Shown here: piece after piece, positions 21,264 to 39,371 of the stretch
Numbering within the stretch: the first letter of the stretch is position 1
Layout of the letters: each line of letters opens with the position of its first letter
Assembly: GCA_003695105.1 (NCBI GenBank)
Contig: RFIZ01000017.1
Span: forward strand, 1 to 45,060
From: Fidelibacterota bacterium
GTDB taxonomy: Bacteria > Fidelibacterota > Marinisomatia > Marinisomatales > J089
Length of the DNA stretch: 45,060 nt
Direction of reading: 5' to 3'
Program-made: the position numbers and the translations under genes
Notes under the pieces: generated by a model
What the model saw: only the letters and a program-made list of their open reading frames with translations
The model's database searches: none
What the model was told of the DNA's origin: nothing

Positions 21264-23249
21264 TTATTTAACCCGGGTCACTTTCCCGGTAAAATCTTTT
21301 GGTCCGGCTTCGATGCGGTAGAGGTAGGTTCCCGAACCGACCAGCTGACCCCGATCATTGCGGCCGGTCCACACGATAGAAGTCAATCCCGGAGACAGGG
21401 TCCGGATCGGCCAGGTTCGGACCCGGCGACCGTTCAGATCCCAGATGGAAACGGATACGGCCTGCTCCCGGTTCGTCAGAATAGGAATGGTCAGCGTGTC
21501 ATGAAAGGGATTGGGAAATTGTTGTCCGACGTAGAGGTCCGATGTCAATGCTTTATAACTTGAATCGGGGATGGCAGTAAAACGCAGGGCCTGGAGATTG
21601 GCTCCCGGTGCCACGACTGAGATTTGCAGCCATACCTGCCCGGCCGGCAAATCCGTTTCCTGGCGAACCACCTTCCAGTCATCCCAGCCCCCGGTGGCGG
21701 TACTCTCCACCAGGGGAATCACCGTTTCTCCGTTGGCATATAAGCGGAAGGCACCGCTGCCGTCCGGACTGGCGAGGGTCCATTCCACGGCATAGTGTCC
21801 CCCATAGGAGATTTCCACCGTGTACCCCAGCCATTCCTGGGCATTCATCCAACCCACATAATAGGGAAAACCGGTTAGCGTGGCCGATTTCCCGATATCC
21901 ACTCCGTCATTGCGATAGACCCAGCCCTGATTGCCCACATTGTTGGGGGCCGAGCCGGTATTTTGATATTCATGATCGCTGTACGCCACACCATTGGCAC
22001 CCAGATCGTACTGGGCGGCATAAAGAGTTCCGGGTAAAACATGGTCGGTGAACGCGTGGGGAGTGCGGAAAAAATCCTCCCGGAAGAGGGCATCTGCCAT
22101 ATCCGGGCGATAGGTGCAACTATCCACATTGAGGTTGTCCGCCATCCGGAACAGGGCGCTTCGGGCCGATTCGTGGGAAGGCCGCGGTCCGGTGTGATTG
22201 AAATAATCCAGCACTGCCTGATAGTCCGGGTATAAAGGCGCCGAATAGAAGCAGGAAATGCTGCGGAGTTTTTTATAGGTCCACACATTCCAGCCCACGC
22301 CGTTGTCTTCCATCAGACGAATGGCTGACCGAATCCAATGGGTGGAATTTTCCCCGAACTCTCCCATCCAGAGGGGAACCCGGTAGGCTTGCCGGAAATT
22401 GAGTAAATATTGGAGTCCACTCTGAACATTGGGGCGCCAGTACCAGTGGAAAGCATACCCCATGTTGGTATCGAAAGGCGGGGTCAATCCGGCAAAATCA
22501 GTGGCGTACCAATTACCTTCCACCCACAGCAAATGATGGGTGTCCACCTCCCGGATGGCGTTGGTGATCCGCATGTACAAGGCCCGCATCTGTCCCGTGG
22601 TGACGCCGCTCGGCAGGACCGGTTCATTGATCAGGTCATAGCCGCCGATCCAGGTTTCGTCGCGGTACCGCCGGGCCAGAGCCCGCCAGAGAGCCACGGT
22701 CAGGTCCTGGTCATCAGAATTTAACCACAGTTCCGCCGTGCCGGGACTGTCACTGATCGGTCCCGGATTTTGACTCCCCGGCGCCGCATGGAGATCCAAA
22801 ATCAGATAAAGCCGATTGGACCGGCACCAGGCCAGGACCGAATCGATGACCGCAAATCCGTAGCTGGTGGTATCTATCTGACCCTGGGCATCCAGGAAAA
22901 ACCGGTAATGCATCGGCAGCCGAACCGAATTGAATCCCATGGCCGCAATCCGGTCGATATCCTGCCGCCGGACGTAATTCGATCGATACCGTTGAAAAAA
23001 TTCCTCCGTTTCCGCTTCCGTCAACAGTTTTCGGATCGAATCACGAATGGCCGTTGCGGAACCGAAACCGGGGAAATTCAACATATAGCCTTCGGGAACC
23101 AGCCAGCCTCCCAGTCCGATGCCCCGGAGGAGGACCGGTGTCCCATTGCCGTCCACTACCTGACCGTCCAGGTTATGAAGATAGCCCGTCTGGCCGCCCA
23201 GAAGGGATACGAGAACGCCTGCAGTCAGGATGCGGACCGGCAGGTTCAT
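21264..23249 (-). CDS. Glycoside hydrolase family 5 (exo/endo-beta-glucanase-like) + CBM6/35-like module + T9SS CTD
   Basis: Start at M36 of the track ORF (ATG 23249-23247, ATGA overlap with the GH16 stop), giving MNLPVRILTAGVLVSLLGG. GH5 motifs GIGLGGWLVPEGYM, acid/base DLINEP, nucleophile WMGEFGEN. CBM-like block YAAQYDLGANGVAYSD...GGWDDWKVV. CTD QQFPNPFHDTLTIPI...GTYLYRIEA. Confidence 0.85.
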   Translation of the reverse strand: MNLPVRILTAGVLVSLLGGQTGYLHNLDGQVVDGNGTPVLLRGIGLGGWLVPEGYMLNFPGFGSATAIRDSIRKLLTEAETEEFFQRYRSNYVRRQDIDRIAAMGFNSVRLPMHYRFFLDAQGQIDTTSYGFAVIDSVLAWCRSNRLYLILDLHAAPGSQNPGPISDSPGTAELWLNSDDQDLTVALWRALARRYRDETWIGGYDLINEPVLPSGVTTGQMRALYMRITNAIREVDTHHLLWVEGNWYATDFAGLTPPFDTNMGYAFHWYWRPNVQSGLQYLLNFRQAYRVPLWMGEFGENSTHWIRSAIRLMEDNGVGWNVWTYKKLRSISCFYSAPLYPDYQAVLDYFNHTGPRPSHESARSALFRMADNLNVDSCTYRPDMADALFREDFFRTPHAFTDHVLPGTLYAAQYDLGANGVAYSDHEYQNTGSAPNNVGNQGWVYRNDGVDIGKSATLTGFPYYVGWMNAQEWLGYTVEISYGGHYAVEWTLASPDGSGAFRLYANGETVIPLVESTATGGWDDWKVVRQETDLPAGQVWLQISVVAPGANLQALRFTAIPDSSYKALTSDLYVGQQFPNPFHDTLTIPILTNREQAVSVSIWDLNGRRVRTWPIRTLSPGLTSIVWTGRNDRGQLVGSGTYLYRIEAGPKDFTGKVTRVK

Positions 23250-24286
23250 TTCAGTAACAGAACCGGTACAGTGGGACCGGAAAGGCGGGATCCGTAGCGG
23301 AGGAGGTAGATTCCGCTCTCCAGCGGGCGACCGAACCGGTCGGTCCCGTCCCACCGGATCAGGGGCGCTTCGGTGGACAGAGCCGTGACCGATTTTCCCA
23401 ACAGATTGTAAATGGTGACCGTCCCCTCCCTGCCCGTGACCGGAATGGTCAGGGAGCGATTGAACGGATTCGGATAGGGGGGCGAAAGTCGATCCGGGAG
23501 CAGCAGACCCGAATCCTCACTCTTCAGGGGACCCCCCGAATACCCCGTGTTGACCGGATCGGTCAGACACAGGATCATCTGGCCATCCTGGAAAACCACA
23601 TTTTCCGGAATAAAATCACAATTATTCCCATCCCAGGTGTGGGTGGCCTTTTGCCAGCGCATGATGTCGAAATAATCGAACGGGTCCTCCCAGGCCAAAC
23701 GAAACTGGTTGGCGGATCCTGCATTTCCACTGTCCGGATCATAGGTGTAATAGCGGACCCAGTCGTAGAAGGCATAGACGGGCAGGATGGAATCGTTGAA
23801 GGTCCCGGCCCAATTGACGTCGGCCGGTTGCCAGATATTCATCATCAGTTTTTGACTGTACACCAGTTCCCCGACGTGGGATCCCACCTGAACCGCCACC
23901 TGAGCACTGTCGATGAACCAGGCCACATAATAGGGCGTCCATTCAATGGCATATACATGGTAGGAATCGCTGGGATTGAAATCAGTGGTGGTGGTGGCCA
24001 CGTGGTGAACCTGTCCCGGCGTGATCACATTCCACTGAATCTGGTGGTCGTACCTTCCCAGGTATTCGATATCAATTTCGTTCCAGTGTCCGATCCAGTC
24101 CGGGTCGTTGTCATGATAGGTGAAAAAAGACGACACCACTCCGCTCCCCGGAGCAAACCGGCAGCGCACTTCAAACCGACCGTATAGAAAAGACTCCATC
24201 GTTCGCAGTTCTCCCCCCCGATAGGGCTTGGCCCCGAGACCGGTTGCCAGCCAGATCACCAGGAACCCGAGGAATTTCTTTTTCAT
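23246..24286 (-). CDS. Glycoside hydrolase family 16 (laminarinase/lichenase-type beta-glucanase) + T9SS CTD
   Basis: Signal peptide MKKKFLGFLVIWLATGLGA. GH16 catalytic motif WNEIDIEYLG (E-x-D-x-E). YHVYAIEWTPYYVAWFID is typical of the family. CTD PPYPNPFNRSLTIPV...GIYLLRY. Confidence 0.88.
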   Translation of the reverse strand: MKKKFLGFLVIWLATGLGAKPYRGGELRTMESFLYGRFEVRCRFAPGSGVVSSFFTYHDNDPDWIGHWNEIDIEYLGRYDHQIQWNVITPGQVHHVATTTTDFNPSDSYHVYAIEWTPYYVAWFIDSAQVAVQVGSHVGELVYSQKLMMNIWQPADVNWAGTFNDSILPVYAFYDWVRYYTYDPDSGNAGSANQFRLAWEDPFDYFDIMRWQKATHTWDGNNCDFIPENVVFQDGQMILCLTDPVNTGYSGGPLKSEDSGLLLPDRLSPPYPNPFNRSLTIPVTGREGTVTIYNLLGKSVTALSTEAPLIRWDGTDRFGRPLESGIYLLRYGSRLSGPTVPVLLLK

Positions 24287-25749
24287 GGATTCATCCTCCG
24301 ACCGTAGTTGAGACGATGGTCATCCGTCAATTGCGGAAAGGACGGTGTCACCACAGGATAGGGGGCGTACTGTTCCGTGACCATCATGGGAATTCCGGTA
24401 ATGGAAAGTTGATTGAATTTACTCACATCGATTTCAATCTGGTCCGAATATCGTTCCTGGAGGCTGTCAATGACAGCCGTAAAAAACCGCAGATCACTGA
24501 GCTTCGGGTCTTTTCGTTGCCGGAGAGACGCTTTCATCCATTGGGCCCGGTAAAAATCACGCCACATGGCCTCGTTTTGGACCACACTGGGGTGCCGGTC
24601 CAGGCCTTCGCGGTAGGCCGCCTGTGTAAGAAAATAATCCCGAATCAGATCGGCGACGGCGTCCCGGAATTCTTCCGCAAAATGACCGGCAGGAATGTTT
24701 TTGGAACGGAATACCAGAGGATGGGTACGGATCAGCTCCCGGTAGCGGCCCACGGTCCAGGGTTCACCATCCAGGGTAAAAAAGATCTCCTCCGCTCCCA
24801 CTTCCGGCAGATCCTGTACCGAGGGGGGCGGCTGGAGTTCGGCGTCCAGATTCCAGAGAGATTGTTGTAACGCCTGCTGTTTTTCTTGCGCACTACGCAG
24901 GTAAAGTTTCTGGGCCCGGCGGGCCATCCGGAAAAAGGTTTCCGGCTGAAACTCCAGCCGGTGTCCGGACATGATCTCTCCGGCGAAGGATTCATAGGCC
25001 CGCTGAGCCGCCTGGTCCTCCAGGTATCGCCGGGCCGTCTCCCACCGTTCCTGCCGCTGGGATTCGGTGACTGCCAGTCGTTCCGTCCAGCCCGCCACTT
25101 CCAGGACCAGATAGCGCTGATCCCCGGTTACCAGCGGACCCAGGATCGCTCCCTGGTGCCAGGGAACGGAATACAGGGTATCCCGAAGGCCCCGGGTATT
25201 CAGGTCTTCCCAGCGGATGATCTTGGTGGGAACCGTATCGCCCGGATAGGCTTCAGCGTAGAGATCCGCCAGGGTTCGATGACGGTTGAGGGTCTGATCC
25301 AACACCCACAAAGCCGCTGTATCCGAGGGCAGGGACAGGTAATGGAGCCGGTAGGTGCGGCCCATGAGGTCCGCCAGTTGCCCGATCGCGGCCGAGTCCA
25401 CCCTGACCGCCCGGGTCCCGTGCCGGTGATACAACCACGCCCGCATGGCCTGTTCTTTACGGCCCTGAAGGGTTGCCTCCACCACCGCCGGCAGCCGGAT
25501 CGTATCACCGGCAAGAGACAGCAGTTTTTCCCCAATCAGGGAATTGAGGATAATGGTTTTGGAGACCGGGGTATTGGTACGGCAATAGGCGGGACGAGGG
25601 GTGTATTCCGCCCGGAAAAGGAAATCCTGGGTGGTGATGATACGGTCACCCACCCGGGCCAGTACATCCAGTTCCAGATCAGGGCGGGAACAGGCCGTGA
25701 ACCAGAGGGCCAGAATTCCGGCCAGCCGAATTATTTGAGGTAGACGCAT
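24283..25749 (-). CDS. Lipoprotein, SurA/PpiD N-terminal chaperone-like (no rotamase motif seen); function unknown
   Basis: Lipobox LALWFTAC. VLARVGDRIITTQDFLFRAEY...IILNSLIGEKLL resembles the SurA_N-type chaperone domain. The rest is helical-looking with no recognisable catalytic motif. ATGA overlap with the GH16 start. Confidence 0.35.
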   Translation of the reverse strand: MRLPQIIRLAGILALWFTACSRPDLELDVLARVGDRIITTQDFLFRAEYTPRPAYCRTNTPVSKTIILNSLIGEKLLSLAGDTIRLPAVVEATLQGRKEQAMRAWLYHRHGTRAVRVDSAAIGQLADLMGRTYRLHYLSLPSDTAALWVLDQTLNRHRTLADLYAEAYPGDTVPTKIIRWEDLNTRGLRDTLYSVPWHQGAILGPLVTGDQRYLVLEVAGWTERLAVTESQRQERWETARRYLEDQAAQRAYESFAGEIMSGHRLEFQPETFFRMARRAQKLYLRSAQEKQQALQQSLWNLDAELQPPPSVQDLPEVGAEEIFFTLDGEPWTVGRYRELIRTHPLVFRSKNIPAGHFAEEFRDAVADLIRDYFLTQAAYREGLDRHPSVVQNEAMWRDFYRAQWMKASLRQRKDPKLSDLRFFTAVIDSLQERYSDQIEIDVSKFNQLSITGIPMMVTEQYAPYPVVTPSFPQLTDDHRLNYGRRMNP

Positions 25750-27761
25750 TTGGCGGAAGTTACTTGATCGGCGGTCGCCAGACGAATAAAATAGAGACCG
25801 GAACCGATGGCCCCGGGCGACCAGGTGATTTCCAGTTCCTCCCCAGGGCTGATGCCTGTCTGAAGTTGGTCCACCAATTTCCCCCGGAGGTCATACACTG
25901 CCAGATGATAGGGGCTGCCCGGTCGCACCTCCATCCGGATAGTGGTCCTCCCGTTGAAGGGATTGGGATACACTCCCAGGCGAAACGATTCCGGCAGCCA
26001 GCTGCCTCTTCCCGGTTGAAGGCCCAGGGAGTGTCCCTCCTGGTACACCTCCAACCCGATCGTCAGGTAGACCAGGGGGGCATTCCAGTTGATGGCGATT
26101 TCATTGGAGGCATAACTGCAGAAATCATCCACGTAGGACAGGGGTGGTCGATCGGAGGGATAGGTACAACCGTCCTGCTGCCCGGGGTTGGGTCCGCCCA
26201 CCAGCAAGCCCGGGACCGGTTCGGGAACGACATCGGCTTCCGATTGATTGTGGTGGGGGTGCTGGGGCGAAAAGGAGCCTATTCCCGTGACAAAGCAATA
26301 GCCCGTGGGGTTACGCCCCAACAGATAATCCAGATTGGCCTGAGCCGCTTCGGCATAAACCGGATCGCCCGAAACGGCGTAGGCATTGAGCAGGACCATA
26401 CCCTGGTTGGCGGCGACGGCATTACTGCCCCAGACGAAATCACTCGCCTGTCCTCCCATGGGACATCCATAGGGCGAAGATTCCATCCGGGTCACCAGAG
26501 TCGTGCCCAGAGCCAGAAGGCGTTCCCGCACCCAGGCCGTATCGACGGCACCTGCCACCTGGGTACGGTGACGGGCCAGGGAGAGTACCCCCAGTGTCCG
26601 GACATCGCCCCACCAGGGAACGGTGAGGGAAGGATGGTTGGCGGGCGCTCCGGTGAGAGTCAAAAAGCTATCCTGCCCGGTGGTTATAAACAGCTCCATG
26701 GCCGCCCAGTCCCTTTCATCGGTGGCATCGTTGTCGCCGTATTCACCGGTGTGGATATCGGGATCGAATTGTTGATTGAGAGCGGTCTGGTTGTAGAGAC
26801 TGTCCGGATAGTGCCGTCCCCAACGCCAGGCAGCCAGAGCCGCCGTCAGACAGGAATCGGCCAGCCCCGGCAGAGCTGTCGGAAACCGGCCGACAACCCG
26901 GGAAGCCACCGCCATGACGGCGGCAAAATCCAGGGTGGCCGGCGTACTTTTCTGGACCACGTACCGGTCCTGGGCCGCTTCAGCCGGCATCATCACCGAT
27001 TCGAATTCGGGGTTGGTCAGTTTGTGATACACCCCACCGTCATCGGGATCCTGCATGGCCAGCATCCACCGCAGGTTCCAGAGAGTTTCATCCAGAAGGT
27101 CGGGCAGGTTGTTGTCCGTTTCGGGAATGGGAACGGTGAGAGTATCCACGTAGTCGGGATAATGTTCCAGCGCCGCCAACAGAGTGTAAGTCGATATACC
27201 GGAATTGACCACATATTTATTGAAGTCACCGGCATCATACCATCCCCGGGGAGCCTGAATCACCGTGCCTTCCGGTCGGGCGGCGGTGGCGGCCGAAGCG
27301 TGGACATACACGGTTGTATCGGGGTGTCCCTCGGCCCGGAACCAGAGTCCGGCATAAGCGGGTTCCAGCGGAGTGGAGGCTCGTTGGTAATAATAGCCCT
27401 TGATCACCGTGCGCAGCAAATTCCAGTAGCGGTGCGCACTAATTGACACCGGCCAAGACGTTTCCCCGTTGGCCAGTACCAGATAGTCACCCGGTTGGGT
27501 CCAGGCGGAAAAATCCAGTTTATGGGTGATGGAACCGGTCAGATTCCAGTACTCGGCTCCCCCGGCCGTACCCGTCCAGACCGTGTCTCCCCCGGACGTG
27601 ACCAGGTAGAAATTCGAAACCGTCGGAGTGGTAATCACGGCTATTTTGGCCTGGCCGGGATAGAATCCCACCTGGTTCACGGCGATGGCGGGAACCTGGG
27701 AATACAGAACCACCGAACAGCAAATCACCCAGGCAGGGAACAGCAAATACGACCACCTCAT
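25731..27761 (-). CDS. Glycoside hydrolase family 9 endo-beta-1,4-glucanase with N-terminal Ig-like (CelD_N) domain + T9SS CTD
   Basis: IAVNQVGFYPGQAKIAV (CelD_N-like). GH9 motifs GWYDAGDFNKY, WMLAMQDPDDGGVYHKL, DFVWGSN, HHNQS, LVGGPN, YASNEIAINWNAPLVY. CTD GVYPNPFNGRTTIRM...GLYFIRL. Confidence 0.9.
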   Translation of the reverse strand: MRWSYLLFPAWVICCSVVLYSQVPAIAVNQVGFYPGQAKIAVITTPTVSNFYLVTSGGDTVWTGTAGGAEYWNLTGSITHKLDFSAWTQPGDYLVLANGETSWPVSISAHRYWNLLRTVIKGYYYQRASTPLEPAYAGLWFRAEGHPDTTVYVHASAATAARPEGTVIQAPRGWYDAGDFNKYVVNSGISTYTLLAALEHYPDYVDTLTVPIPETDNNLPDLLDETLWNLRWMLAMQDPDDGGVYHKLTNPEFESVMMPAEAAQDRYVVQKSTPATLDFAAVMAVASRVVGRFPTALPGLADSCLTAALAAWRWGRHYPDSLYNQTALNQQFDPDIHTGEYGDNDATDERDWAAMELFITTGQDSFLTLTGAPANHPSLTVPWWGDVRTLGVLSLARHRTQVAGAVDTAWVRERLLALGTTLVTRMESSPYGCPMGGQASDFVWGSNAVAANQGMVLLNAYAVSGDPVYAEAAQANLDYLLGRNPTGYCFVTGIGSFSPQHPHHNQSEADVVPEPVPGLLVGGPNPGQQDGCTYPSDRPPLSYVDDFCSYASNEIAINWNAPLVYLTIGLEVYQEGHSLGLQPGRGSWLPESFRLGVYPNPFNGRTTIRMEVRPGSPYHLAVYDLRGKLVDQLQTGISPGEELEITWSPGAIGSGLYFIRLATADQVTSAKCVYLK

Positions 27762-32293: not shown

Positions 32294-34972
32294 TTAAAAT
32301 TCCACTCCCACACTCAGTTTAATACTCCTTGGGGCGGAGTAGGCGGACGGATCGTGAATCCGGTCCTCATAGGTGTTGAAATTGCTGCGATGACCGGCCA
32401 GATCCGTGTCCTGAATGATGGCCGTATACGCCCTGCCGGTCTGACCGTTGACGTTGATTTCGTTTAAGCGGTCGAACAGGTTCCGTACCAGCAACTCAAA
32501 TTTCAGCCTGAAGTGACTGCCCAGGGTTAGTGCATAATGGGCGGTCATATCTACCGTATATCGGGTCGGGCGATAATCATTGTTGGGATACAGGTTGATC
32601 CGGCTGATGAGCCGTTCACCCAATGGCGTGTATGTATAGGGCATGCCCGAATTGTAATAGCCCGTAATGGAAACACCCCCGCGGCCCCGCTCATAGCTGA
32701 CCGTCGCATTGAAGGTATTCCGCTGGTCCCAGTTCAGCGGTATCAGACGATTCACCGGGTCCGTCTGGCTGCCTTCGCGATCAAAGGCCTCCCGGGGATA
32801 ATCCGCATTCCCGCGGGTGTACTGAAGCGTGTAATTCACAAAAATGGCCAGCGGACGCCGGGTGAAATCATATTTTACCTCCAGACCCCGTACATTGCCG
32901 TAATCCTTGTTGGTGTATAACCCGTACTCGATTTGATTGAAAGTGCTGATGATCTTCGTGCTCAACAGATCGTAAATATCCCGGTAGAACAACGAGACCT
33001 CCAGTCCCATTCCCCGGGACAGTTCCTGCCACAGACCGATTTCGTAGGAGACTGTTTTTTCGGCTTTGACCTGAGGATTGCCCATGACGGTGGAATAATC
33101 ATCCGGCCCGACCCGCAGGCTGTGATTCTGATACAGCGCGTAAAAAGGCGGCATCTGGAAAAAATGGCCGTAGCTGAAATGGAGCACAGCCGCATTCCCC
33201 AGCTGGTAGGCCAGACCGAATCGGGGCGACCACTGGAATTTGGGGTCGGCAGGGACCGGATGGGACATGGAATCGGGATTGTCGAATATTTGTTGATTGC
33301 CGGGATTTCGCCGTTGGGACGGATATGTGGCGGCCGGATCGAAATAATCGTACCGCAGCCCCAGATTGATCACCATATCGTCGAATTCCATCTTGTCCTG
33401 GATATACGCCGACTGTTCCACCGGTTTCACATGATAGATATCGGCGTAGATGGTGCTGTCCGGCAGGATGATCGGCTCGTAGAGGTCGAATTCGTTGGAG
33501 GTGCCATAATATTTATTGCGGATTTGGTGCCAGGTATTGGTGATGTCATGGTGGATTCCCAGATATCCCGCCTTCAAACTGTGGCGGGGATTGGCCTGCC
33601 AATTGAGGTCGAACTTCACCGTGGCATCCCGGGTCTCCCGGTAGCTGTGATCCTTGCTTTGCCCACCAGTCAGAAAACCCGGTCCATAGCTGTTGAAATA
33701 TTTATCGTGGACATACCGCGCATCCATGGGATCCTTGTATACATAGGTGCCGCCGTAGTTATAGGTCTGGGAAAATTTGAATTCGTAGAACAGGGCGTTG
33801 GACAGCATGTGATTGACCTGCACGGCCAGCATATGAGCATCCCGAACCGAATGGGGACGCCCGTTGGGATTGTACTTGTAAAAATGATCGTACCACCGCC
33901 AGATGTCGTTGTTGCGGGTATAGAGCAGGTTCCAGCGGAAATGTTTCCACAGATTGAAACTCAGCTTTCCCATCAGAGATTGATTCTGAGTCACGTTCAT
34001 GGGGACCAGGTTTCCGCTGCCATTATGTTCGGAAATCCAATCCAGGGAATCGGGAGAAGTGAAATCACTGTAATCATCGACCAGAAAGCGTTCAATACCA
34101 TTCAGATGTCCCTGATTGTCCTGCAACCGGGAATTGATAAAAAAGGTTATCTTGTCACCCCAAACCGGTCCGCTCAACTGAAACTTCACATCCGTATTCC
34201 GGTTGATATCCGGCTGATCAATTCCGATGAAAATATCTTTATGCGGTGTAAAATAATTCTCTACGGCACCGGAAACGGATCCGTGGAACTCCCGGGAACC
34301 GCTTTTGGTTACCTGATTCACAATGCCGCTCATGGCCCGGCCGTATTCAGCATTGAAGGTTCCGGTGATGACTTCCAGATCCTGGACGGCGTCCGCTTCC
34401 AGATCAACGGTGGACCCGGTACCGCCTACGACTTCATCCACCACCAGACCATCGATCATATAGGAAACTTCCGTGTTGCGACCGCCCCGGAAATGGCCTT
34501 CCACCACGCCCGCCTGCATCTGGATGATTTCACCGATATTTTCCACCGGCAGGACATCCATTTGATCCGCGGAGATATTCTTCGTGGTACCCGTCTGGTC
34601 TTTCTTTTGGGAAATGGCACTGGCCGTCACCACCACTTCCTGCCCTTCCAGAACGGTGGGCTCCAGTTCGGCTTTGAGATAGGCCGTCCGGTTGACGGAG
34701 ACTTTGATCCCTTCCATCCGCAGTTCGGTGTAGCCGATCATCTGGGCGATGACCGTATACGTCCCCGGGGCGACATTGAGGATGAAGAAGGAGCCGTTTT
34801 CGTCGGTGGCAGCCCCGATTCCCATGCCTTCCAGAAATACATTGACGCCCGGCAGGGGTTCCTGGGTATCCTTATCCACTACCGTACCGGCAATCTTGCC
34901 GGTGGTCTGTCCCGCCAGGGGTACCAGAACCAGGGCCAGGAGCAAACTAAAAAACGAGATTCTGTATTTCAT
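32294..34972 (-). CDS. TonB-dependent outer-membrane transporter with N-terminal carboxypeptidase-regulatory-like domain
   Basis: 892 aa. Signal peptide, then GKIAGTVVDKDTQEPLPGVNVFLEG...GSFFILNVAPGTYTV (CarboxypepD_reg). Plug region ISADQMDVLPVENIGEIIQMQAGVV. Beta-barrel ends in ...IKLSVGVEF with terminal Phe. Confidence 0.9.
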   Translation of the reverse strand: MKYRISFFSLLLALVLVPLAGQTTGKIAGTVVDKDTQEPLPGVNVFLEGMGIGAATDENGSFFILNVAPGTYTVIAQMIGYTELRMEGIKVSVNRTAYLKAELEPTVLEGQEVVVTASAISQKKDQTGTTKNISADQMDVLPVENIGEIIQMQAGVVEGHFRGGRNTEVSYMIDGLVVDEVVGGTGSTVDLEADAVQDLEVITGTFNAEYGRAMSGIVNQVTKSGSREFHGSVSGAVENYFTPHKDIFIGIDQPDINRNTDVKFQLSGPVWGDKITFFINSRLQDNQGHLNGIERFLVDDYSDFTSPDSLDWISEHNGSGNLVPMNVTQNQSLMGKLSFNLWKHFRWNLLYTRNNDIWRWYDHFYKYNPNGRPHSVRDAHMLAVQVNHMLSNALFYEFKFSQTYNYGGTYVYKDPMDARYVHDKYFNSYGPGFLTGGQSKDHSYRETRDATVKFDLNWQANPRHSLKAGYLGIHHDITNTWHQIRNKYYGTSNEFDLYEPIILPDSTIYADIYHVKPVEQSAYIQDKMEFDDMVINLGLRYDYFDPAATYPSQRRNPGNQQIFDNPDSMSHPVPADPKFQWSPRFGLAYQLGNAAVLHFSYGHFFQMPPFYALYQNHSLRVGPDDYSTVMGNPQVKAEKTVSYEIGLWQELSRGMGLEVSLFYRDIYDLLSTKIISTFNQIEYGLYTNKDYGNVRGLEVKYDFTRRPLAIFVNYTLQYTRGNADYPREAFDREGSQTDPVNRLIPLNWDQRNTFNATVSYERGRGGVSITGYYNSGMPYTYTPLGERLISRINLYPNNDYRPTRYTVDMTAHYALTLGSHFRLKFELLVRNLFDRLNEINVNGQTGRAYTAIIQDTDLAGHRSNFNTYEDRIHDPSAYSAPRSIKLSVGVEF

Positions 34973-35049: not shown

Positions 35050-37659
35050 TTATTTCATCAGTATCATCTTTTTCGTCTGGACGAAATCACCGGCGCGCAA
35101 CTGATAGAAATACACTCCGGAAGCTGCCTGGGAACCATTCCATTTCACGGTGTAGGTGCCCGCCTTCTGGACATGATTCACCAGTTGATCCACTTCCTGT
35201 CCCATCAGGTTGTAGATGGTGAGAGTGACCTCTCCCGCCCGGGGAACCACATACTCGATACTGGTGGTCGGGTTAAAGGGGTTCGGGTAGTTGTTCCGCA
35301 GGGCGTACTGTTGCGGCTGGAGCGTTTCATTGCCCGTGGAAAGAGCCACGTCAGTCGTATCTCCGATCCAGGTGTAGGCCCATTCTTCCGGCGTCTGCCA
35401 CTGATGGTCCGTGCTGAACGAGGAGAAACCGACATTTCCTTCCCAACCGGCGCCGTCGTTGTCATGGAAGTACAGGTCGATCGGAACCCGCATGCCATTC
35501 TGAGGATGGAAACGTGGATCACCTCCGGCGGCGGCAATGGCATCCAGGGGTACGCGCACTTCGAAGACGTAGTCCGGATTGAATCCTTCGAAGTAATAGT
35601 CGGCGGAATCCGGAGTGTAGAGGGCGTATCCACCCGGATTATCGAACTGGAAGACCTGTTCATTGGCATACATGATGTAGTCCGGTTCATCGCCCCGCAG
35701 GATGGAGGTGTGTTTGGGACCGCGCCAGTCATAGAGACCGATGAAGAGCTGGAAGGCATCCTGGTCCCACCAGTTTCCGGCGCCAAAGGAATAAACATTA
35801 TCCACAACATCTCCGGCCAGATAGAGATAGTCATCATCGATGGCCATAAATACCGTTCCGGTCAGGTCATTGTCATCATCCACCGATCCCACGGGAACAA
35901 ATCCGTTGGAAGGCGAGATGGTGAAGGGCATGATGCCGCTGCTGTACCATTCGGTCAAATCGCCATCGGCGGCAAAGGAAGCCGGAGGATTGAGGGAAAT
36001 GGTGGGAATGCCCCGGGCCGTATTGGTCACGGGAGAGGCCGAAACGCCCGGCTCACTCACATTGGCAAATTCATCGGCACAGGTCACGGCATAGTAGTAG
36101 GTGAGGTCGGTATCCACCAGTGGATAATTCAACCAGTGGATGACGGTCTGAATATCTTCACCCACACCCGATTCCACCAGTTCCACACCCGGCGCCGACA
36201 CATCGGTGATGGGAGACTGACTGGCATAGACATTATACGTCTCTCCCGATTCTCCGGGTACGTCCTGCCAGATCACCAGGTTGTAGTAGGTGCCTACCAC
36301 GCCGGACACACCCTGAGGCGGAGCCGGAGCTTCCACATCGATGGCCAGCGGCATGGTGGCAATTTCATCCAGATCGATCGTCTGGTTTACGGCCGCGGTA
36401 CTGGCAATCAGCATTTTAAAGAATTTCACCCGGGAAGAGTCCATTTCACCGGGACGCATGCCCGTGCCGTCCCAGCCGCCGCTGAAACGGTCAAAACTGG
36501 ACAGGGGAATTTTGACTTCTTTCCAGGTTCCGTCATAGCCCACTTCCGTTTCGGTCAGGGTGTAGGCGGCTTCGAATTCGGAATCGGGGGTGTCATCAGC
36601 ACCGTCGCCGTCATTATCCACAAAGCCGTCGTCATCCGGATCGGCGAGGACCAGTTTCAGATCGCCAATCCCGGCCGGGGCCTTGATCTTGAACTGGAGA
36701 CTGTCATGGGACCAGCTGTACCAGAGATTCTGGGGCGCATCCAGCGTGAACACCAGCCCGTCCCAGACGGCCCAGTCATTCGGGGGTGTATGCCAGCGAA
36801 GGGCATTGGTATTGGGCGTATAGCCGGCGCCTTCAACGATTTCATAACTGCCGCCGCCCCAGCCGGCCCAGAGGTCGACATTGGAAGGAATAGCCATACT
36901 GTTGAAAAACACCAGCGGTACCGAAGATCCCCCGGTGGCTTCCAGGTCATCCAAAACAATGGTTCCCTGGGAATAGTCCCCTTCACCGGCACCATTGATG
37001 GAGAATTCGATGGAAAAACCTTTGATCTTATCCTTGTCCAGTTGGCCATTGCCCTGTATCCCGGCCCAGCCGGTGTGATTGAACCCTTCGCCGCCCCAGT
37101 AATCGCCGGCCTCGAGGGGTATGGCGATCCGGTGCCAGCCGGGGGCATCATCCAGAATGTAATGGAAGGAATAGTAGTATTCGACTTCATTCACATCGTA
37201 GGTGGCATTTCCGTTGGGGGAATCGCTCACTTCCTGGAGATTGAAGCGTAAATGCGTGCGGGTCGGCAGGGATTGGGGAACGGCATTGTAGTACCAGAAA
37301 GAAATGGTGTCATAGGCCGACAGGTCATAGACACCATTGCTGTCCGGATTCCAGTGCTCCAGTTTGGAATAGCCGCCCCAACTTTCCGTGTTGTGCGCAC
37401 TCCAATCCAGTTGCATGGCTCCCGTACCTTCATGCACCGGGCTGGAGACATAGGTGGGTATCACCCAGCCGTAGGCTGAATCGGCATGATCGCTGGTATT
37501 GTAATGGGCGCCGAAAGTACTGACACAGCAATTCACTGAATCAAACCAGGCCCAGTAATTCGTATCTGCGGGAGCCGAATCGAAGGAATTCCAGACATAT
37601 TGGCTGTATCCAAGCGAGAGCATGAATACGGTAGCCAAGATGGGTAACCTTGATTTCAT
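35050..37659 (-). CDS. Multi-domain surface glycan-binding-type protein: two CBM-like beta-sandwich modules + FN3 + CBM9-like module + T9SS CTD
   Basis: 869 aa with a signal peptide. Trp/Tyr/Gly-rich beta-sandwich-like N-terminal repeats. FN3-like PAPPQGVSGV...YNVYAS...YYYAVTCADEFANVSEPG. CBM9-like GTVFMAIDDDYLYLAGDVVDN...WWDQDAFQLFIG...LYFHDNDG. CTD NNYPNPFNPTTSIEYVV...GVYFYQLRA. AAGGAGGAAG lies 5 nt upstream of the ATG. Confidence 0.6.
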   Translation of the reverse strand: MKSRLPILATVFMLSLGYSQYVWNSFDSAPADTNYWAWFDSVNCCVSTFGAHYNTSDHADSAYGWVIPTYVSSPVHEGTGAMQLDWSAHNTESWGGYSKLEHWNPDSNGVYDLSAYDTISFWYYNAVPQSLPTRTHLRFNLQEVSDSPNGNATYDVNEVEYYYSFHYILDDAPGWHRIAIPLEAGDYWGGEGFNHTGWAGIQGNGQLDKDKIKGFSIEFSINGAGEGDYSQGTIVLDDLEATGGSSVPLVFFNSMAIPSNVDLWAGWGGGSYEIVEGAGYTPNTNALRWHTPPNDWAVWDGLVFTLDAPQNLWYSWSHDSLQFKIKAPAGIGDLKLVLADPDDDGFVDNDGDGADDTPDSEFEAAYTLTETEVGYDGTWKEVKIPLSSFDRFSGGWDGTGMRPGEMDSSRVKFFKMLIASTAAVNQTIDLDEIATMPLAIDVEAPAPPQGVSGVVGTYYNLVIWQDVPGESGETYNVYASQSPITDVSAPGVELVESGVGEDIQTVIHWLNYPLVDTDLTYYYAVTCADEFANVSEPGVSASPVTNTARGIPTISLNPPASFAADGDLTEWYSSGIMPFTISPSNGFVPVGSVDDDNDLTGTVFMAIDDDYLYLAGDVVDNVYSFGAGNWWDQDAFQLFIGLYDWRGPKHTSILRGDEPDYIMYANEQVFQFDNPGGYALYTPDSADYYFEGFNPDYVFEVRVPLDAIAAAGGDPRFHPQNGMRVPIDLYFHDNDGAGWEGNVGFSSFSTDHQWQTPEEWAYTWIGDTTDVALSTGNETLQPQQYALRNNYPNPFNPTTSIEYVVPRAGEVTLTIYNLMGQEVDQLVNHVQKAGTYTVKWNGSQAASGVYFYQLRAGDFVQTKKMILMK

Positions 37660-37682: not shown

Positions 37683-39308
37683 TCAGAAGAATCGGATCCA
37701 TAATCCGATAATGGTTGCGGCCAGGATGACCGAGGCCCAAATGTTTATTTTGGTCCACACGGGGGATTTTTCTCCCATTTTCACCGCCAGTTCGGACTGG
37801 AGATCCTGAGCGGTGGCAAAGGTGAGTCCGGCGATTTGATCGCGGTCCGGTTCTTCACTCATCAGACTGACGACCACCAAAACGATTGTGGACACGAGAA
37901 ACAGGAAGAAAGCAAAATGTAAAAAATTCATGGAAGCATAGCCAGTCATAAATCCGAGATCGACTCCGTTTTTCTTGGAAACGATTTCCAGGATCAGCCG
38001 CAATGCTCCCAGAACGGCGCCAATCACCAGGGAATAGATGGCTCCTTTGCCGTTCACCCGCTTCCAGAACACCCCCAGGATGAAGACCGCCGCGATGGGG
38101 GGACTGATATAAGCTTGAACGCTTTGGAGATAAACGAAGAGCTGGGAAGAAATACTGCTGATGAGCGGGACCCAAAGAATCCCGAAAATGACCAGAACCG
38201 TGGTGGCCAGGCGTCCCACCAGCACCAGTTCCCGTTCGGACGCCTGGGGTTTAAAATGTTTGTAAAAATCCATGGTGAACAGGGTCGAACTGCTGTTGAA
38301 ACAGCTGGCCAGGGAAGACATGAGCGCCGCCAGGAGCGATGCAATGACCATGCCCTTGATGCCGATCGGCAGCAAATGACTGGATACCAGTCGCGGGTAG
38401 GCTTCATCGCCTTTGATGTCCGGAAACATGGCCACCGCAATCAGACCGGGCAGCACCAAAATAAACACCGGCAGAATTTTCAAAAAGCCGGCGAATATGG
38501 CGCCCGACTGGGCATGATTGACATTTTTGGCGCTCAGCACCCGCTGAACAATGAACTGGTCGGTACACCAGTACCAGATGCCCAGGATCGGCGCACCGAA
38601 GATGATGCCCGTCCAGGGAAAGTCCGGATGGTTGGCCGGTTTGAACATACTGAAGAAATCAGCCGGTAATTTGGCCTCCAATCCGCTGAAACCGCCCACT
38701 TCCCGCAACCCCAGGGTGGTCAACAATACGGCACCGAAAATCAGGACCACGGTTTGAATCAACTCGGTATAGATCACGGCGCTGAGTCCGCCGGCAATGG
38801 TATAGAGCCCGGTAATGATCACCAGAATGATGGCCGAGGTGATGATATCCCATCCCAGGATGGTGTGCAGGAGGAGTCCCCCGGCCAGGAGAGTGACAGA
38901 GATTTTGGTCAACACATAGGCCACGATGGAAACGGAGGTAAGGTACATCCGGCTGGAGGCATTGTAGCGTCGTTCCAGAAATTCGGGCATGGTAAACACA
39001 CCCGACTTCAGGTAAAAAGGCACAAACACCCAGGCCAGAATCATGACGATGAAAGCCGCCAGCCATTCAAAATGCCCTACGGCCAGTCCACTGGTTGCCC
39101 CGGAGCCGGCCAACCCGATGAAATGTTCGGAGGAGATGTTGGATGCAAACAGGGAAGCGCCGATCGCCACCCACCCCACATTCCGACCGGCCAGAAAGTA
39201 TTCCGTACTGGTATTTCCCCGTTTGGCGAAATAAAAGCCAATGCCCAGCACCAACAGGAAATAGGCCACAATCACCACACCATCTAAAGGGGCTATGTTT
39301 TGAAACAT
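37683..39308 (-). CDS. Sodium:solute symporter (SSS family, SGLT-type sugar transporter)
   Basis: 541 aa, multi-TM. N-terminus GVVIVAYFLLVLGIGFYFAKRGNTSTEYFLAGRNVGWVAIGASLFASNISSEHFIGLAGSG is typical of SGLT/SSS transporters. AAGGAG lies 8 nt upstream of the ATG. Confidence 0.9.
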   Translation of the reverse strand: MFQNIAPLDGVVIVAYFLLVLGIGFYFAKRGNTSTEYFLAGRNVGWVAIGASLFASNISSEHFIGLAGSGATSGLAVGHFEWLAAFIVMILAWVFVPFYLKSGVFTMPEFLERRYNASSRMYLTSVSIVAYVLTKISVTLLAGGLLLHTILGWDIITSAIILVIITGLYTIAGGLSAVIYTELIQTVVLIFGAVLLTTLGLREVGGFSGLEAKLPADFFSMFKPANHPDFPWTGIIFGAPILGIWYWCTDQFIVQRVLSAKNVNHAQSGAIFAGFLKILPVFILVLPGLIAVAMFPDIKGDEAYPRLVSSHLLPIGIKGMVIASLLAALMSSLASCFNSSSTLFTMDFYKHFKPQASERELVLVGRLATTVLVIFGILWVPLISSISSQLFVYLQSVQAYISPPIAAVFILGVFWKRVNGKGAIYSLVIGAVLGALRLILEIVSKKNGVDLGFMTGYASMNFLHFAFFLFLVSTIVLVVVSLMSEEPDRDQIAGLTFATAQDLQSELAVKMGEKSPVWTKINIWASVILAATIIGLWIRFF

Positions 39309-39354
39309 GAATGCTCTCCTTCTTACCTCTGCTCGTACTTCATCTCCCCGTCAG

Positions 39355-39371
39355 AAGCAAACATCAAGCCA
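39355..39371 (-). promoter_or_regulatory. Sigma-54 (-24/-12) promoter for the SGLT-to-GH5 operon
   Basis: Minus-strand sequence TGGCTTGATGTTTGCTT, i.e. TGGC-N7-TTGC with exact consensus spacing (TGGCAC-N5-TTGC). The GC of the -12 element is 49 nt upstream of the ATG at 39308. A sigma-54 enhancer-binding protein is encoded next door. Confidence 0.75.

What the first reader, a model, noticed from the sequence alone, without database searches (positions are those of the whole stretch)
21264..39371. Nine-gene, sigma-54-driven, SusD-less, T9SS-coupled beta-glucan utilisation operon
**Layout.** From the sigma-54 promoter at 39355-39371, nine minus-strand genes follow with gaps of -19 to +77 nt:
- SGLT-type symporter
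- multi-CBM surface protein
- CarboxypepD_reg-type TonB-dependent transporter (TBDT)
- 1153-aa acidic-repeat protein
- PorV-like barrel
- GH9
- SurA-like lipoprotein
- GH16
- GH5

**Why it stands out.** Five of the nine proteins end in a T9SS C-terminal domain. Functionally this resembles a Bacteroidetes polysaccharide utilisation locus (PUL), but three defining features are replaced:
- There is no SusD-like lipoprotein next to the TBDT.
- Regulation is by a sigma-54 enhancer-binding protein, not an HTCS, SusR or ECF-sigma system.
- The locus carries its own secretion/attachment component.

**Likely substrate.** The enzyme set (GH9, GH16, GH5 and the divergent GH3) points to beta-glucans: laminarin, mixed-linkage glucan or cellodextrins.

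I do not recognise this combined architecture as a described system.
Basis: partly seen in the sequence, partly recalled or inferred. Interest (0 to 1): 0.78.

Follow-up and report, generated by a model that had tools for sequence, protein, structure and literature searches.

The report
SusD-less, T9SS-linked glycan uptake locus
This is a real beta-glucan utilisation operon from a Marinimicrobia (SAR406) genome, built around a gene trio (outer-membrane transporter, a 1153-residue secreted protein of unknown family, and a PorV-like barrel) that recurs in several phyla and that I could not find described.

Summary
**Observation: confirmed.** Nine tightly packed minus-strand genes occupy 21264-39308. 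They sit behind a -24/-12 motif and an SBP-HK-NtrC-type activator module. No SusD homologue is present.

**Source.** The window is a Candidatus Neomarinimicrobiota contig.

**Main result.**
- The TBDT -> 1153-aa protein ("BIG") -> PorV/PorQ-family barrel trio is conserved.
- Across 122 BIG-containing loci from Marinimicrobia, KSB1/Zhuqueibacterota, Calditrichota (including cultured Caldithrix abyssi) and one Ignavibacteriaceae MAG, the TBDT lies upstream in 97/97 testable cases.
- The barrel lies directly downstream in 106/110.
- Close relatives also keep a CBM9 protein and a SurA/PrsA-like lipoprotein.
- Flanking enzymes vary (GH16/GH5/GH9/GH3, GH13, GH130, GH43, GH32), and so do regulators (sigma-54 activator or LacI).

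**BIG.**
- It has no Pfam domain.
- Its C-terminal domain is a distinct, highly conserved subclass. Its only PDB relatives are the C-terminal domains of PorZ and PorU, which PorQ and PorV anchor at the surface.

**Best explanation.** This is a PUL-like import machine. BIG is exported by the type IX secretion system, held at the surface by its own barrel, and partners the transporter where Bacteroidota use SusD.

**Status of the claims.**
- The anchoring and the partnership are inferred, not shown.
- I found no published description, but the literature search was limited.
- Sigma-54 control is lineage-specific and is not a defining feature.

The parts
43873..45060 (+). Partial GH3 beta-glucosidase, divergently transcribed, runs off the window end
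   Evidence: tblastn with the Caldithrix abyssi GH3 gives E 7e-65 over 44015-45058. The frame is open for 396 aa to the window end.
42410..43741 (-). Periplasmic solute-binding protein (SBP_bac_1), probable sugar sensor
   Evidence: PF01547/PF13416. The same SBP-HK-EBP order occurs in L080.
40935..42413 (-). Sensor histidine kinase
   Evidence: HATPase_c. It is conserved upstream of the cassette in L074, L077, L080, L081, L083 and L085.
39509..40957 (-). NtrC-type sigma-54 enhancer-binding response regulator
   Evidence: Response_reg + Sigma54_activat (224 bits) + AAA lid. TIGR01818 327 bits. It has Walker A, a GSFTGA loop and a C-terminal HTH.
39472..39486 (.). Palindrome TTATCAAAATGATAA, candidate activator-binding site about 108 nt upstream of the -24 element
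   Evidence: Read from the sequence. Related loci carry a different palindrome at the same distance. Its function is inferred only.
39356..39371 (-). Sigma-54-type -24/-12 promoter motif TGGCTTGATGTTTGCT
   Evidence: One of 2 strict matches in 90 kb of both strands. It lies 63 nt upstream of the symporter ATG. A positionally equivalent TGG-N9-TTG motif occurs in L074, L077, L081, L083 and L085.
37683..39308 (-). Sodium:solute symporter (inner-membrane sugar uptake)
   Evidence: PF00474 330 bits; TIGR00813 394 bits.
35050..37659 (-). 869-aa secreted protein: unassigned N-terminal region, CBM9 domain, T9SS CTD
   Evidence: PF06452 36.8 bits and PF18962 37 bits. Weak match to the CBM9 structure 1i82. 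A relative lies upstream in 55/57 close loci.
32294..34972 (-). TonB-dependent transporter with a CarboxypepD_reg N-terminal domain; not SusC/RagA family
   Evidence: PF13715, PF07715, PF00593, PF25183. TIGR04056 scores only 62.7 bits vs cutoff 368. No PDB relative at E<1e-5. It lies upstream of BIG in 97/97 testable loci.
28829..32290 (-). BIG: 1153-aa signal-peptide protein. It has a conserved N-terminal ~750 aa with Asp-rich Ca-binding-like loops and an FN3-like domain, variable Ig-like domains (~750-1040), and a PorZ/PorU-like CTD (~1050-1153).
   Evidence: No Pfam domain. 3289 clusters at 50% identity match at E<=1e-3. The AF2 model has pLDDT 90.2. CTD hits to PorU 6za2 and PorZ 5m11. Block-wise conservation.
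27783..28832 (-). PorV/PorQ-family 14-strand-type outer-membrane barrel. Its ATG overlaps the BIG stop codon (ATGA).
   Evidence: NF033709 199.6 bits vs cutoff 90. It is below the cutoffs of the PorV and PorQ equivalog models. F. johnsoniae PorV 6h3i matches at E 3.8e-12. The overlap is read. It lies directly downstream of BIG in 106/110 testable loci.
25731..27761 (-). GH9 endoglucanase/cellobiohydrolase-type enzyme with CelD_N and T9SS CTD
   Evidence: PF00759 283 bits, PF02927, PF18962.
24283..25749 (-). 488-aa lipoprotein of the SurA/PrsA/PpiD chaperone type
   Evidence: Lipobox FTAC. The family profile hits PrsA 4wo7 at E 8.9e-6. SurA_N_2 occurs in 19/36, SurA_N_3 in 15/36 and Rotamase_2 in 12/36 homologues. 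A relative lies downstream in 66/69 close loci.
23246..24286 (-). GH16 beta-glucanase (lichenase/laminarinase type) with T9SS CTD
   Evidence: PF00722 93 bits; NF047856 BglS-type 151.8 bits (below cutoff); TIGR04183 24.7 vs 23. A signal peptide is present.
21264..23249 (-). GH5 + CBM6/35 + T9SS CTD. The likely start is the ATG at 23249, which overlaps the GH16 stop.
   Evidence: PF00150, PF03422; TIGR04183 27.6 vs 23. The start is inferred from the signal peptide MNLPVRILTAGVLVSLLGG.
7565..13164 (+). Context: PorU-like C25 sortase (7565-12163) plus a weak PorV/PorQ-family barrel (12160-13164). This is the likely housekeeping T9SS attachment pair of the same genome.
   Evidence: PF01364 191 bits. 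NF033707 199.9 bits and NF033709 32.6 bits, both below their cutoffs.

Best explanation
The locus is a polysaccharide-utilisation system of a non-Bacteroidota FCB bacterium (Marinimicrobia). Its outer-membrane core is a co-inherited trio.

**The trio.**
- A CarboxypepD_reg-type TonB-dependent transporter (TBDT).
- BIG, a 1153-aa protein that carries a signal peptide.
- A dedicated PorV/PorQ-family barrel.

**Proposed mechanism (steps marked shown or inferred).**
1. Oligosaccharide in the periplasm is sensed by the SBP-histidine kinase pair. This activates the NtrC-type regulator and a sigma-54 promoter upstream of the symporter gene. (Parts shown; signalling inferred.)
2. BIG, the CBM9 protein and the GH9, GH16 and GH5 enzymes are exported by Sec. 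They fold in the periplasm, possibly helped by the SurA/PrsA-like lipoprotein, and cross the outer membrane through the T9SS by way of their C-terminal domains. (Signal peptides and CTDs shown; export inferred.)
3. The enzymes behave as ordinary type-A cargo. BIG keeps its specialised, PorZ/PorU-like CTD and is held non-covalently at the surface by the co-translated PorV-like barrel, as PorQ holds PorZ and PorV holds PorU. (Inferred.)
4. Surface GH16, GH9 and GH5 cut beta-glucan. BIG, perhaps through its variable Ig-like domains, and the CBM9 protein capture the oligosaccharides and hand them to the TBDT. BIG therefore fills the role that the SusD lipoprotein fills in Bacteroidota, without being related to it. 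(Inferred.)
5. GH3 and the Na+ symporter complete breakdown and uptake. (Inferred from family functions.)

The same trio is reused with other enzyme sets, so it is a substrate-agnostic chassis.
For: **Gene content and tight packing.**

**The trio is conserved.**
- The TBDT lies upstream in 72/72 close loci and 25/25 distant loci.
- The barrel lies directly downstream in 78/80 close and 28/30 distant loci.
- The loci come from Marinimicrobia, KSB1/Zhuqueibacterota, Calditrichota and one Ignavibacteriaceae MAG. They include Caldithrix abyssi DSM 13497.
- Identities of BIG, TBDT and barrel to the window proteins fall together. Pearson r is 0.97 for BIG vs TBDT and 0.91 for BIG vs barrel.
- Some genomes carry several copies, and L095 has a tandem pair.

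**Flanking genes vary.**
- They include GH16, GH5, GH9, GH3, GH13+CBM48/CBM20, GH130, GH43, GH32, GH30 and GH106.
- They also include SSF, MFS and ABC sugar importers. 18 of the 81 flanking ORFs scanned carry a T9SS CTD.

**BIG's CTD is a separate subclass.**
- The family profile's only informative PDB hits are the CTDs of PorU (E 0.0037) and PorZ (E 0.004).
- Foldseek ranks PorZ first (E 5e-8) and PorU fourth.
- An HMM of the BIG CTD gives 115/121 strong hits followed by a PorV-like gene within 600 nt. None of 93 weaker cargo-type hits is.
- In the window, that HMM's next-best hit is the PorU-like protein. The GH9, GH16 and GH5 CTDs do not score at all.
- BIG's CTD is more conserved than the rest of the protein (0.73 vs 0.65). 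The enzyme CTDs are less conserved than their catalytic domains: GH16 0.36 vs 0.53, GH5 0.32 vs 0.43.
- Unrelated proteins that share only this CTD are also followed by a PorV-like barrel.

**Published precedent for barrel anchoring.**
- PorU and PorZ are anchored by PorV and PorQ, and SprB by the PorP-like SprF (PMC7463736).
- Specialised shuttles for type B CTDs are described in PMC12618676.
Against: - Nothing here shows protein-protein contact, surface location, CTD retention or glycan binding by BIG.
- The sequence hits to the PorU and PorZ CTDs are marginal (E about 0.004). The Foldseek TM-scores are at most 0.12, so the similarity is local.
- BIG's N-terminal ~750 aa is far more conserved (about 0.7-0.8 identity) than expected for a substrate-specific binder. 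That fits a structural or mechanical role, or an unknown catalytic role, better than a SusD-like one.
- Synteny proves co-function but not the particular division of labour.
- The loci are not independent samples; some are near-duplicates. Neighbours were called by tblastn rather than by full annotation.
- Sigma-54 dependence rests on a motif, and related loci have a weaker -12 element.
Confidence: 0.6

Rival explanations
1. BIG plus the PorV-like barrel form a locus-specific T9SS attachment or shuttle module, a PorZ-PorQ analogue. Its job would be to collect, process or retain the locus's own CTD-bearing enzymes and the CBM9 protein next to the transporter. BIG would not bind glycan or work with the TBDT directly.
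For: - The closest relatives of BIG's CTD are PorZ and PorU, both attachment-complex proteins.
- The barrel belongs to the PorV/PorQ family.
- Many flanking genes carry CTDs.
- The highly conserved, substrate-independent N-terminal region of BIG suits a machinery role.
Against: - The genome already encodes a PorU-like sortase with an adjacent barrel.
- BIG's body does not resemble the double beta-propeller of PorZ (TM <= 0.12).
- The invariant partner is the TBDT, in 97/97 loci. CTD-bearing enzymes are not always adjacent.
Confidence: 0.2
2. BIG is itself an unrecognised carbohydrate-active or otherwise catalytic surface enzyme. The many invariant Asp and Glu residues would be catalytic or Ca-binding, and it would act on a feature common to many glycans. 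The barrel would serve only as its anchor.
For: - There are 39 invariant columns across 62 sequences, some as divergent as 30% identity to the window protein. Many of them are acidic residues: D349/D351/D353, E358, D398, D424/D428, E458, D465/E468/D470.
- There is no match to any known binding-protein family.
Against: - The same protein accompanies loci for chemically unrelated glycans: starch, mannan, fructan, beta-glucan and xylan-type esterases.
- The DxDxDG-type spacing looks like calcium-binding loops rather than a glycosidase active site.
- There are no Pfam or PDB enzyme hits.
Confidence: 0.1
3. The TBDT works outward rather than inward. It would be an Oar-like CarboxypepD_reg TBDT needed for secretion of BIG or other proteins. 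In that case the cluster is a protein-export or surface-assembly locus that merely sits next to CAZyme genes.
For: - The TBDT has the CarboxypepD_reg + OMP_b-brl_4 architecture and is not SusC-like.
- A TBDT of Myxococcus (Oar) is reported to be required for protease secretion (PMC6434023, title and abstract seen).
Against: - BIG and the enzymes carry T9SS CTDs, and the genome has T9SS parts.
- The loci consistently include inner-membrane sugar importers and glycoside hydrolases, which fits import.
Confidence: 0.05

Closest known systems
Bacteroidota polysaccharide utilisation loci (SusC/SusD paradigm)
   Same: - A TonB-dependent transporter is co-encoded with surface glycan-handling proteins, secreted glycoside hydrolases, an inner-membrane sugar importer and a dedicated sensor/regulator.
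- There are several paralogous loci per genome, with swappable enzyme sets.
   Different: - There is no SusD/RagB homologue.
- The TBDT fails the SusC/RagA model.
- The partner protein is a beta-rich 1150-aa T9SS substrate rather than a helical lipoprotein.
- Surface display is by T9SS plus a dedicated barrel instead of lipoprotein export.
- Regulators are sigma-54 EBP or LacI type rather than HTCS, SusR or ECF.
T9SS attachment-complex pairs PorZ-PorQ and PorU-PorV (Porphyromonas gingivalis)
   Same: - A CTD-bearing surface protein is paired with a PorV/PorQ-family barrel that anchors it (PMC7463736).
- The closest relatives of BIG's CTD by sequence and by fold are the PorU and PorZ CTDs.
   Different: - BIG's body is unrelated to the PorZ propellers or the PorU C25 peptidase.
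- The barrel is below the equivalog cutoffs for PorV and PorQ.
- The pair is embedded in a nutrient-uptake locus, always next to a TBDT, and occurs in many copies.
Type B CTD proteins with cognate PorP/SprF-like shuttle/anchor barrels (Flavobacterium johnsoniae)
   Same: - A secreted protein is genetically linked to its own specialised outer-membrane barrel.
- The CTD carries targeting information beyond the secretion signal (PMC12618676; PMC9143113).
   Different: - The barrel family differs: PorV/PorQ rather than PorP/SprF.
- The CTD class differs: only 2 of 22 family members give weak CHU_C hits.
- The known examples are adhesins and motility proteins, not transporter partners.
T9SS-secreted CAZymes in Bacteroidota glycan utilisation systems (e.g. 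secreted chitinase and cellulases of Flavobacterium and Cytophaga; own knowledge)
   Same: Glycoside hydrolases with type A CTDs are exported by the T9SS to feed TBDT-mediated uptake.
   Different: In those systems the transporter still pairs with SusD-like lipoproteins. No BIG-type protein or locus-encoded PorV-like barrel has been reported, as far as I could find.

Membership tests
Bacteroidota-type PUL (SusC/SusD pair) | SusD/RagB-family lipoprotein adjacent to the TBDT | tested here: not met
   No SusD-family Pfam or NCBIfam hit among the nine proteins at E<=0.01. The genes abut, which leaves no room for another. None appears in the annotated related loci.
Bacteroidota-type PUL (SusC/SusD pair) | TBDT belongs to the SusC/RagA family (TIGR04056) | tested here: not met
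   62.7 bits vs cutoff 368.25. Only residues 26-153 align.
PUL in the broad sense (co-localised CAZymes + transporter + regulator) | Glycoside hydrolases, an outer- and an inner-membrane transporter and a sensor/regulator in one cluster | tested here: met
   GH9, GH16, GH5 and GH3, a TBDT, an SSF symporter, and SBP-HK-EBP.
T9SS type A cargo | C-terminal sorting domain passing TIGR04183/PF18962, plus an N-terminal signal peptide | tested here: met
   CBM9 protein 47.1 bits, GH9 37.9, GH5 27.6 and GH16 24.7, against a cutoff of 23. Signal peptides were read.
T9SS type A cargo (applied to BIG) | C-terminal sorting domain passing TIGR04183/PF18962 | tested here: not met
   No hit at E<=0.01. Only the C-terminus of the PorZ model matches, at E 0.0034. 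The family profile hits the PorU and PorZ CTDs. BIG therefore has a CTD-like beta-sandwich of a separate subclass.
PorV/PorQ family (NF033709) | Score above the curated subfamily cutoff | tested here: met
   199.6 bits vs 90. F. johnsoniae PorV 6h3i matches at E 3.8e-12.
PorV proper / PorQ proper | Score above the equivalog cutoffs NF033710 (250) or NF033711 (220) | tested here: not met
   93.9 and 89.5 bits. There is no detectable pairwise similarity to the barrel next to the PorU-like gene.
Sigma-54-dependent operon | Bacterial enhancer-binding protein with a sigma-54 interaction domain and a GAFTGA-type loop | tested here: met
   PF00158 224 bits. GSFTGA, Walker A and an HTH are present.
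Sigma-54-dependent operon | -24 GG / -12 GC promoter at the right spacing upstream of the first gene | tested here: met
   TGGCTTGATGTTTGCT lies 63 nt upstream of the ATG. About 0.7 strict matches are expected per window, and this one falls in a 200-nt intergenic region. Homologous loci keep TGG-N9-TTG but vary the final C.
Sigma-54-dependent operon | rpoN present and transcription start mapped to the motif | not testable with these tools
   The window holds no rpoN, and there are no expression data.
SurA/PrsA/PpiD periplasmic chaperones | SurA_N-type chaperone domain with or without a parvulin domain | tested here: inconclusive
   The window protein has no Pfam hit. Its family profile hits PrsA 4wo7 at E 8.9e-6. 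19/36 homologues hit SurA_N_2 and 12/36 hit Rotamase_2.
PorP/SprF - type B CTD pairs | PorP/SprF-family barrel next to a type B (CHU_C/TIGR04131) CTD protein | tested here: not met
   The barrel hits PorV/PorQ models only. CHU_C matches only 2 of 22 BIG-family members, and weakly.

The most novel reading that the evidence does not exclude
TBDT-BIG-PorV-like barrel is a distinct, SusD-independent outer-membrane glycan-import machine.
- It would be assembled by the type IX secretion system and anchored by a barrel instead of a lipid.
- It would be the general PUL chassis of Marinimicrobia (SAR406), Calditrichota, KSB1/Zhuqueibacterota and relatives.
- BIG would be a new protein family with a new N-terminal fold.
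- If so, a large share of polysaccharide turnover by abundant ocean and sediment bacteria runs through a system that current PUL predictors, which key on SusC/SusD, cannot see.
Probability: 0.45. Interest if true: 0.85.

Novelty: new variant of a known kind. Interest (0 to 1): 0.76.

Why it matters
- **Detection gap.** PUL detection and much of marine carbon-cycle genomics rest on the SusC/SusD pair, which is largely a Bacteroidota feature. This cassette would be missed by such tools.
- **Breadth.**
  - BIG relatives fall into 3289 clusters at 50% identity.
  - 337 matching stretches were found in a collection of one genome per species.
  - Many homologues come from TARA and other ocean samples.
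- **A marker.** A defined, conserved trio gives a searchable marker for glycan-uptake loci in SAR406, Calditrichota and KSB1.
- **New biology.** It suggests a new way of building a transporter-associated surface protein: T9SS export plus a dedicated PorV-like anchor. It also extends T9SS biology beyond Bacteroidota.
- **Testability.** Caldithrix abyssi, which is cultured and grows on cellobiose, glucomannan and xyloglucan (PMC5317091), carries the cassette. The idea can therefore be tested directly.

Tried and rejected
**Structure prediction.**
- The first AlphaFold run on BIG used 45 close homologues (about 68% identity) and failed: pLDDT 41.5. A 62-sequence alignment reaching down to 30% identity gave pLDDT 90.2.
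- The whole-chain Foldseek search gave only local matches (TM <= 0.12). The fold of the N-terminal ~580 aa therefore stays unassigned.

**Look-ups that found nothing.**
- Exact-sequence look-ups of the window BIG and of Calab_3088 found nothing.
- Pfam scans of BIG and of 22 family members gave no domain beyond weak CTD-type hits.
- Pfam found nothing in the unrelated proteins that share the BIG-type CTD.

**Literature.**
- Ten full-text searches found no description of the cassette.
- The searches covered Marinimicrobia, SAR406 and Marinisomatota with laminarin, TonB, T9SS and GH16. They also covered Caldithrix, Melioribacter, Zhuqueibacterota, KSB1 and Ignavibacteriota.
- The Caldithrix genome paper, the Zhuqueibacterota paper and the Guaymas Marinisomatota paper do not mention it.
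- The library lacks most subscription journals, so absence is not proof.

**Readings considered and rejected.**
- SusD homology of any unknown gene: no hits, and BIG is beta-rich.
- Chance adjacency: near-invariant synteny argues against it.
- BIG's CTD as an ordinary cargo signal: the subclass HMM and the conservation pattern argue against it.
- Sigma-54 control as a defining feature: relatives use LacI.

**Promoter and terminator scan.** The sigma-70 promoter and terminator scan of the operon was no better than shuffled sequence, so it does not help define transcript ends.

Full report
**1. What is in the window**

The 45,060-base window equals a whole contig of a Candidatus Neomarinimicrobiota (Marinimicrobia/SAR406) MAG. 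The 1153-aa protein is identical to NCBI record D6762_00610, whose longest contig is 45,060 bases.

Nine minus-strand genes fill 21264-39308.

| Order | Product | Features |
|---|---|---|
| 1 | SSF symporter | inner-membrane Na+:solute symporter |
| 2 | 869-aa protein | one CBM9 domain and a T9SS C-terminal domain (CTD) |
| 3 | 892-aa TonB-dependent transporter (TBDT) | CarboxypepD_reg N-terminal domain |
| 4 | 1153-aa protein (BIG) | no Pfam domain |
| 5 | PorV/PorQ-family barrel | NF033709, 199.6 bits vs cutoff 90 |
| 6 | GH9 | CelD_N and CTD |
| 7 | 488-aa lipoprotein | no Pfam hit |
| 8 | GH16 | CTD |
| 9 | GH5 | CBM6 and CTD |

- The gaps run from -19 to +77 nt. Three junctions are ATGA overlaps: BIG/barrel, lipoprotein/GH16 and GH16/GH5.
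- Upstream on the same strand lie a solute-binding protein, a histidine kinase and an NtrC-type enhancer-binding response regulator. The regulator has Walker A, a GSFTGA loop and an HTH.
- A partial GH3 gene is transcribed divergently at the right edge of the window.
- Elsewhere in the window there is a PorU-like C25 sortase followed by a weak PorV/PorQ-family barrel. The genome therefore has T9SS parts beyond this locus.

**2. The promoter**

- TGGCTTGATGTTTGCT (39371-39356) has the GG-N10-GC spacing of a sigma-54 promoter and lies 63 nt before the symporter ATG.
- Only two strict TGGC-N7-TTGCW matches occur in both strands of the window. This one sits in the 200-nt gap directly after the activator gene.
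- Five related loci with the same HK-EBP-SSF arrangement carry TGG-N9-TTG at the equivalent place, but with GA or GT instead of GC. They also carry a conserved palindrome about 105 nt upstream.
- The window has a different palindrome at a similar distance.
- Sigma-54 control is therefore plausible but unproven.
- It is not a general property of the system. Marine relatives and Caldithrix abyssi have a LacI-type regulator instead.

**3. Conservation**

BIG family size.
- More than 2,500 homologues match at E<=0.001 among the scored candidates. Many come from TARA and other marine samples at 66-69% identity.
- In a library clustered at 50% identity, 3289 clusters match at E<=1e-3 and 432 at E<=1e-30.
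- A scan of one genome per species returned 337 matching stretches. The best 80 come from Marinimicrobia, KSB1/Zhuqueibacterota, Calditrichota and one Ignavibacteriaceae MAG. Several MAGs contribute two loci.

Synteny, from tblastn with the window proteins.

| Neighbour of BIG | Close loci (87) | Distant loci (35, BIG 28-55% identical) |
|---|---|---|
| TBDT upstream | 72/72 | 25/25 |
| PorV-like barrel directly downstream | 78/80 | 28/30 |
| SurA-like lipoprotein downstream | 66/69 | 8/18 |
| CBM9-type protein upstream | 55/57 | 4/18 |

- The distant loci came from a metagenome scan seeded with distant family members.
- Two of the distant loci have the permuted order TBDT-barrel-BIG, and one has two tandem cassettes.
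- Identities of BIG, TBDT and barrel to the window proteins fall together: Pearson 0.97 for BIG vs TBDT and 0.91 for BIG vs barrel. The three genes are therefore inherited as a unit.

**4. A chassis with swappable enzymes**

- Close relatives mostly carry GH16, GH5-CBM6 and GH3. The window adds GH9.
- Other loci carry GH30 plus esterases and galactose-metabolism genes, or GH106.
- The distant cassettes are flanked by a wider set:
  - GH13 with CBM48 or CBM20, plus GH130, GH43, GH32, GH3 and GH9;
  - ABC and MFS sugar importers;
  - 18 of the 81 flanking ORFs carry a T9SS CTD.
- This is the behaviour of a PUL core.
The set comprises a GH16 of BglS/lichenase type, GH9, GH5 and GH3. Substrate specificity is inferred from family membership only.

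**5. The unknown proteins**

The 488-aa lipoprotein.
- It has the lipobox FTAC.
- It belongs to a family found in KSB1, Calditrichota and Marinimicrobia.
- The family profile matches the PrsA foldase (4wo7, E 8.9e-6). Its members often hit SurA_N and parvulin models.
- It is a SurA/PrsA-type chaperone. I infer that it helps the large exported proteins or the barrels to fold.

BIG.
- It has a signal peptide.
- After the alignment was widened to sequences as low as 30% identical, AlphaFold gave a confident model: pLDDT 90.2, pTM 0.77.
- The model is beta-rich. Its parts are:
  - a large N-terminal region (~28-580) containing Asp-rich, Ca-binding-like loops;
  - an FN3-like domain;
  - two Ig-like sandwiches;
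  - a short helix;
  - a C-terminal beta-sandwich.
- Residues 1-750 are 0.64-0.83 identical across loci, residues 750-1040 only 0.40-0.54, and the CTD 0.73.
- No SusD-like helical fold is present.

**6. The CTD-barrel link**

- BIG fails the standard type-A CTD models. Its family profile hits just two informative PDB entries, the C-terminal domains of PorU (6za2) and PorZ (5m11).
- Foldseek ranks PorZ first and PorU fourth, though only as local matches.
- PorU and PorZ are the T9SS surface proteins anchored by the barrels PorV and PorQ (PMC7463736).
- An HMM of the BIG CTD finds 128 strong hits in the collected loci. Of the 121 testable ones, 115 are followed by a PorV-like gene within 600 nt. 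None of 93 weaker, cargo-type hits is.
- In the window, the next-best hit of that HMM is the PorU-like protein. The GH9, GH16 and GH5 CTDs do not score.
- Enzyme CTDs are less conserved than their catalytic domains, whereas BIG's CTD is more conserved than its body.
- Nine loci encode unrelated no-Pfam proteins of 333-1337 aa (the shortest lies at a contig edge and may be truncated). They share only this type of C-terminus, and each is followed by a PorV-like barrel.
- Together with the ATGA overlap, this supports a specific, stoichiometric CTD-barrel pairing. No physical evidence is available.

**7. Interpretation**

The most likely reading is a PUL-like import system. The T9SS exports the enzymes, the CBM9 protein and BIG. 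BIG stays on the surface bound to its own PorV-like barrel and works with the TBDT. It takes the place that SusD and other surface lipoproteins occupy in Bacteroidota.

The rivals are:
- a locus-specific attachment module;
- an unrecognised enzyme;
- an Oar-like export role for the TBDT.

The very high conservation of BIG's N-terminal region across substrates is the main observation that the SusD-analogue idea does not explain well.

**8. Novelty**

- Ten full-text searches and four targeted readings found no description of this cassette.
- The pieces are known: TBDT-centred glycan loci, T9SS-secreted CAZymes, and barrel-anchored CTD proteins.
- The combination, the BIG family and the CTD subclass appear new. 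I therefore rate it a new variant of a known kind.
- The caveat is that the library omits most subscription journals.

Noticed in passing
window 7565-13164 (+): A 1532-aa PorU-like C25 peptidase (NF033707 199.9 bits, below its cutoff) is followed, with a 4-nt overlap, by a 334-aa weak PorV/PorQ-family barrel. This is probably the housekeeping T9SS sortase-anchor pair. The sortase C-terminus is the second-best match of the BIG-CTD HMM in the window.
   Followed up: partly
window 44015-45058 (+): A partial GH3 gene runs off the right end of the contig. It is divergent from the SBP-HK-EBP genes and lies outside the finding's coordinates, but it is part of the same system.
   Followed up: yes
window 16755-21098 (-): A 1447-aa BcrAD_BadFG ATPase + DUF2229 (CoA-enzyme activase type) protein starts 165 nt downstream of the GH5 stop on the same strand. 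No terminator was detected between them. Any relation to the operon is unknown.
   Followed up: no
L125-L133 (e.g. L125:7262-10384, L130:1884-3890): These loci encode no-Pfam proteins of 333-1337 aa (the shortest lies at a contig edge and may be truncated). They are unrelated to BIG except for a BIG-type C-terminus (most end in ...VGKFVIIK or a close variant). Each is followed by a PorV-like barrel, and eight of the nine are preceded by a TBDT. This suggests a wider class of barrel-paired CTD proteins.
   Followed up: partly
L095:1345-14325; L100 and L103: L095 has two tandem TBDT-BIG-barrel cassettes. L100 and L103 have the permuted order TBDT-barrel-BIG-SurA-like.
   Followed up: no
L077, L081, L083, L085 intergenic regions upstream of the SSF gene: A conserved palindrome ATTTGTAAAC-N5-GTTATACAAAC lies about 105 nt upstream of a conserved TGGTCTGGTATTTGA motif. 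These are a candidate activator site and a sigma-54-type promoter with a non-canonical -12 (GA instead of GC).
   Followed up: partly
L088 (Caldithrix abyssi DSM 13497, CM001402.1:3990687-4014205): A cultured organism carries the full cassette: CBM9-TBDT-BIG(1172 aa)-barrel-SurA-like. It is flanked by GH9, GH18, LacI, GH3, SSF and GH5. The published genome paper does not mention it.
   Followed up: partly
window 28829-32290 vs 24283-25749: BIG orthologues stay 58-69% identical across phyla, while the co-encoded SurA-like lipoprotein drops to 30-38%. This is an unusually strong constraint on a 1153-aa surface protein, and no explanation so far accounts for it.
   Followed up: no
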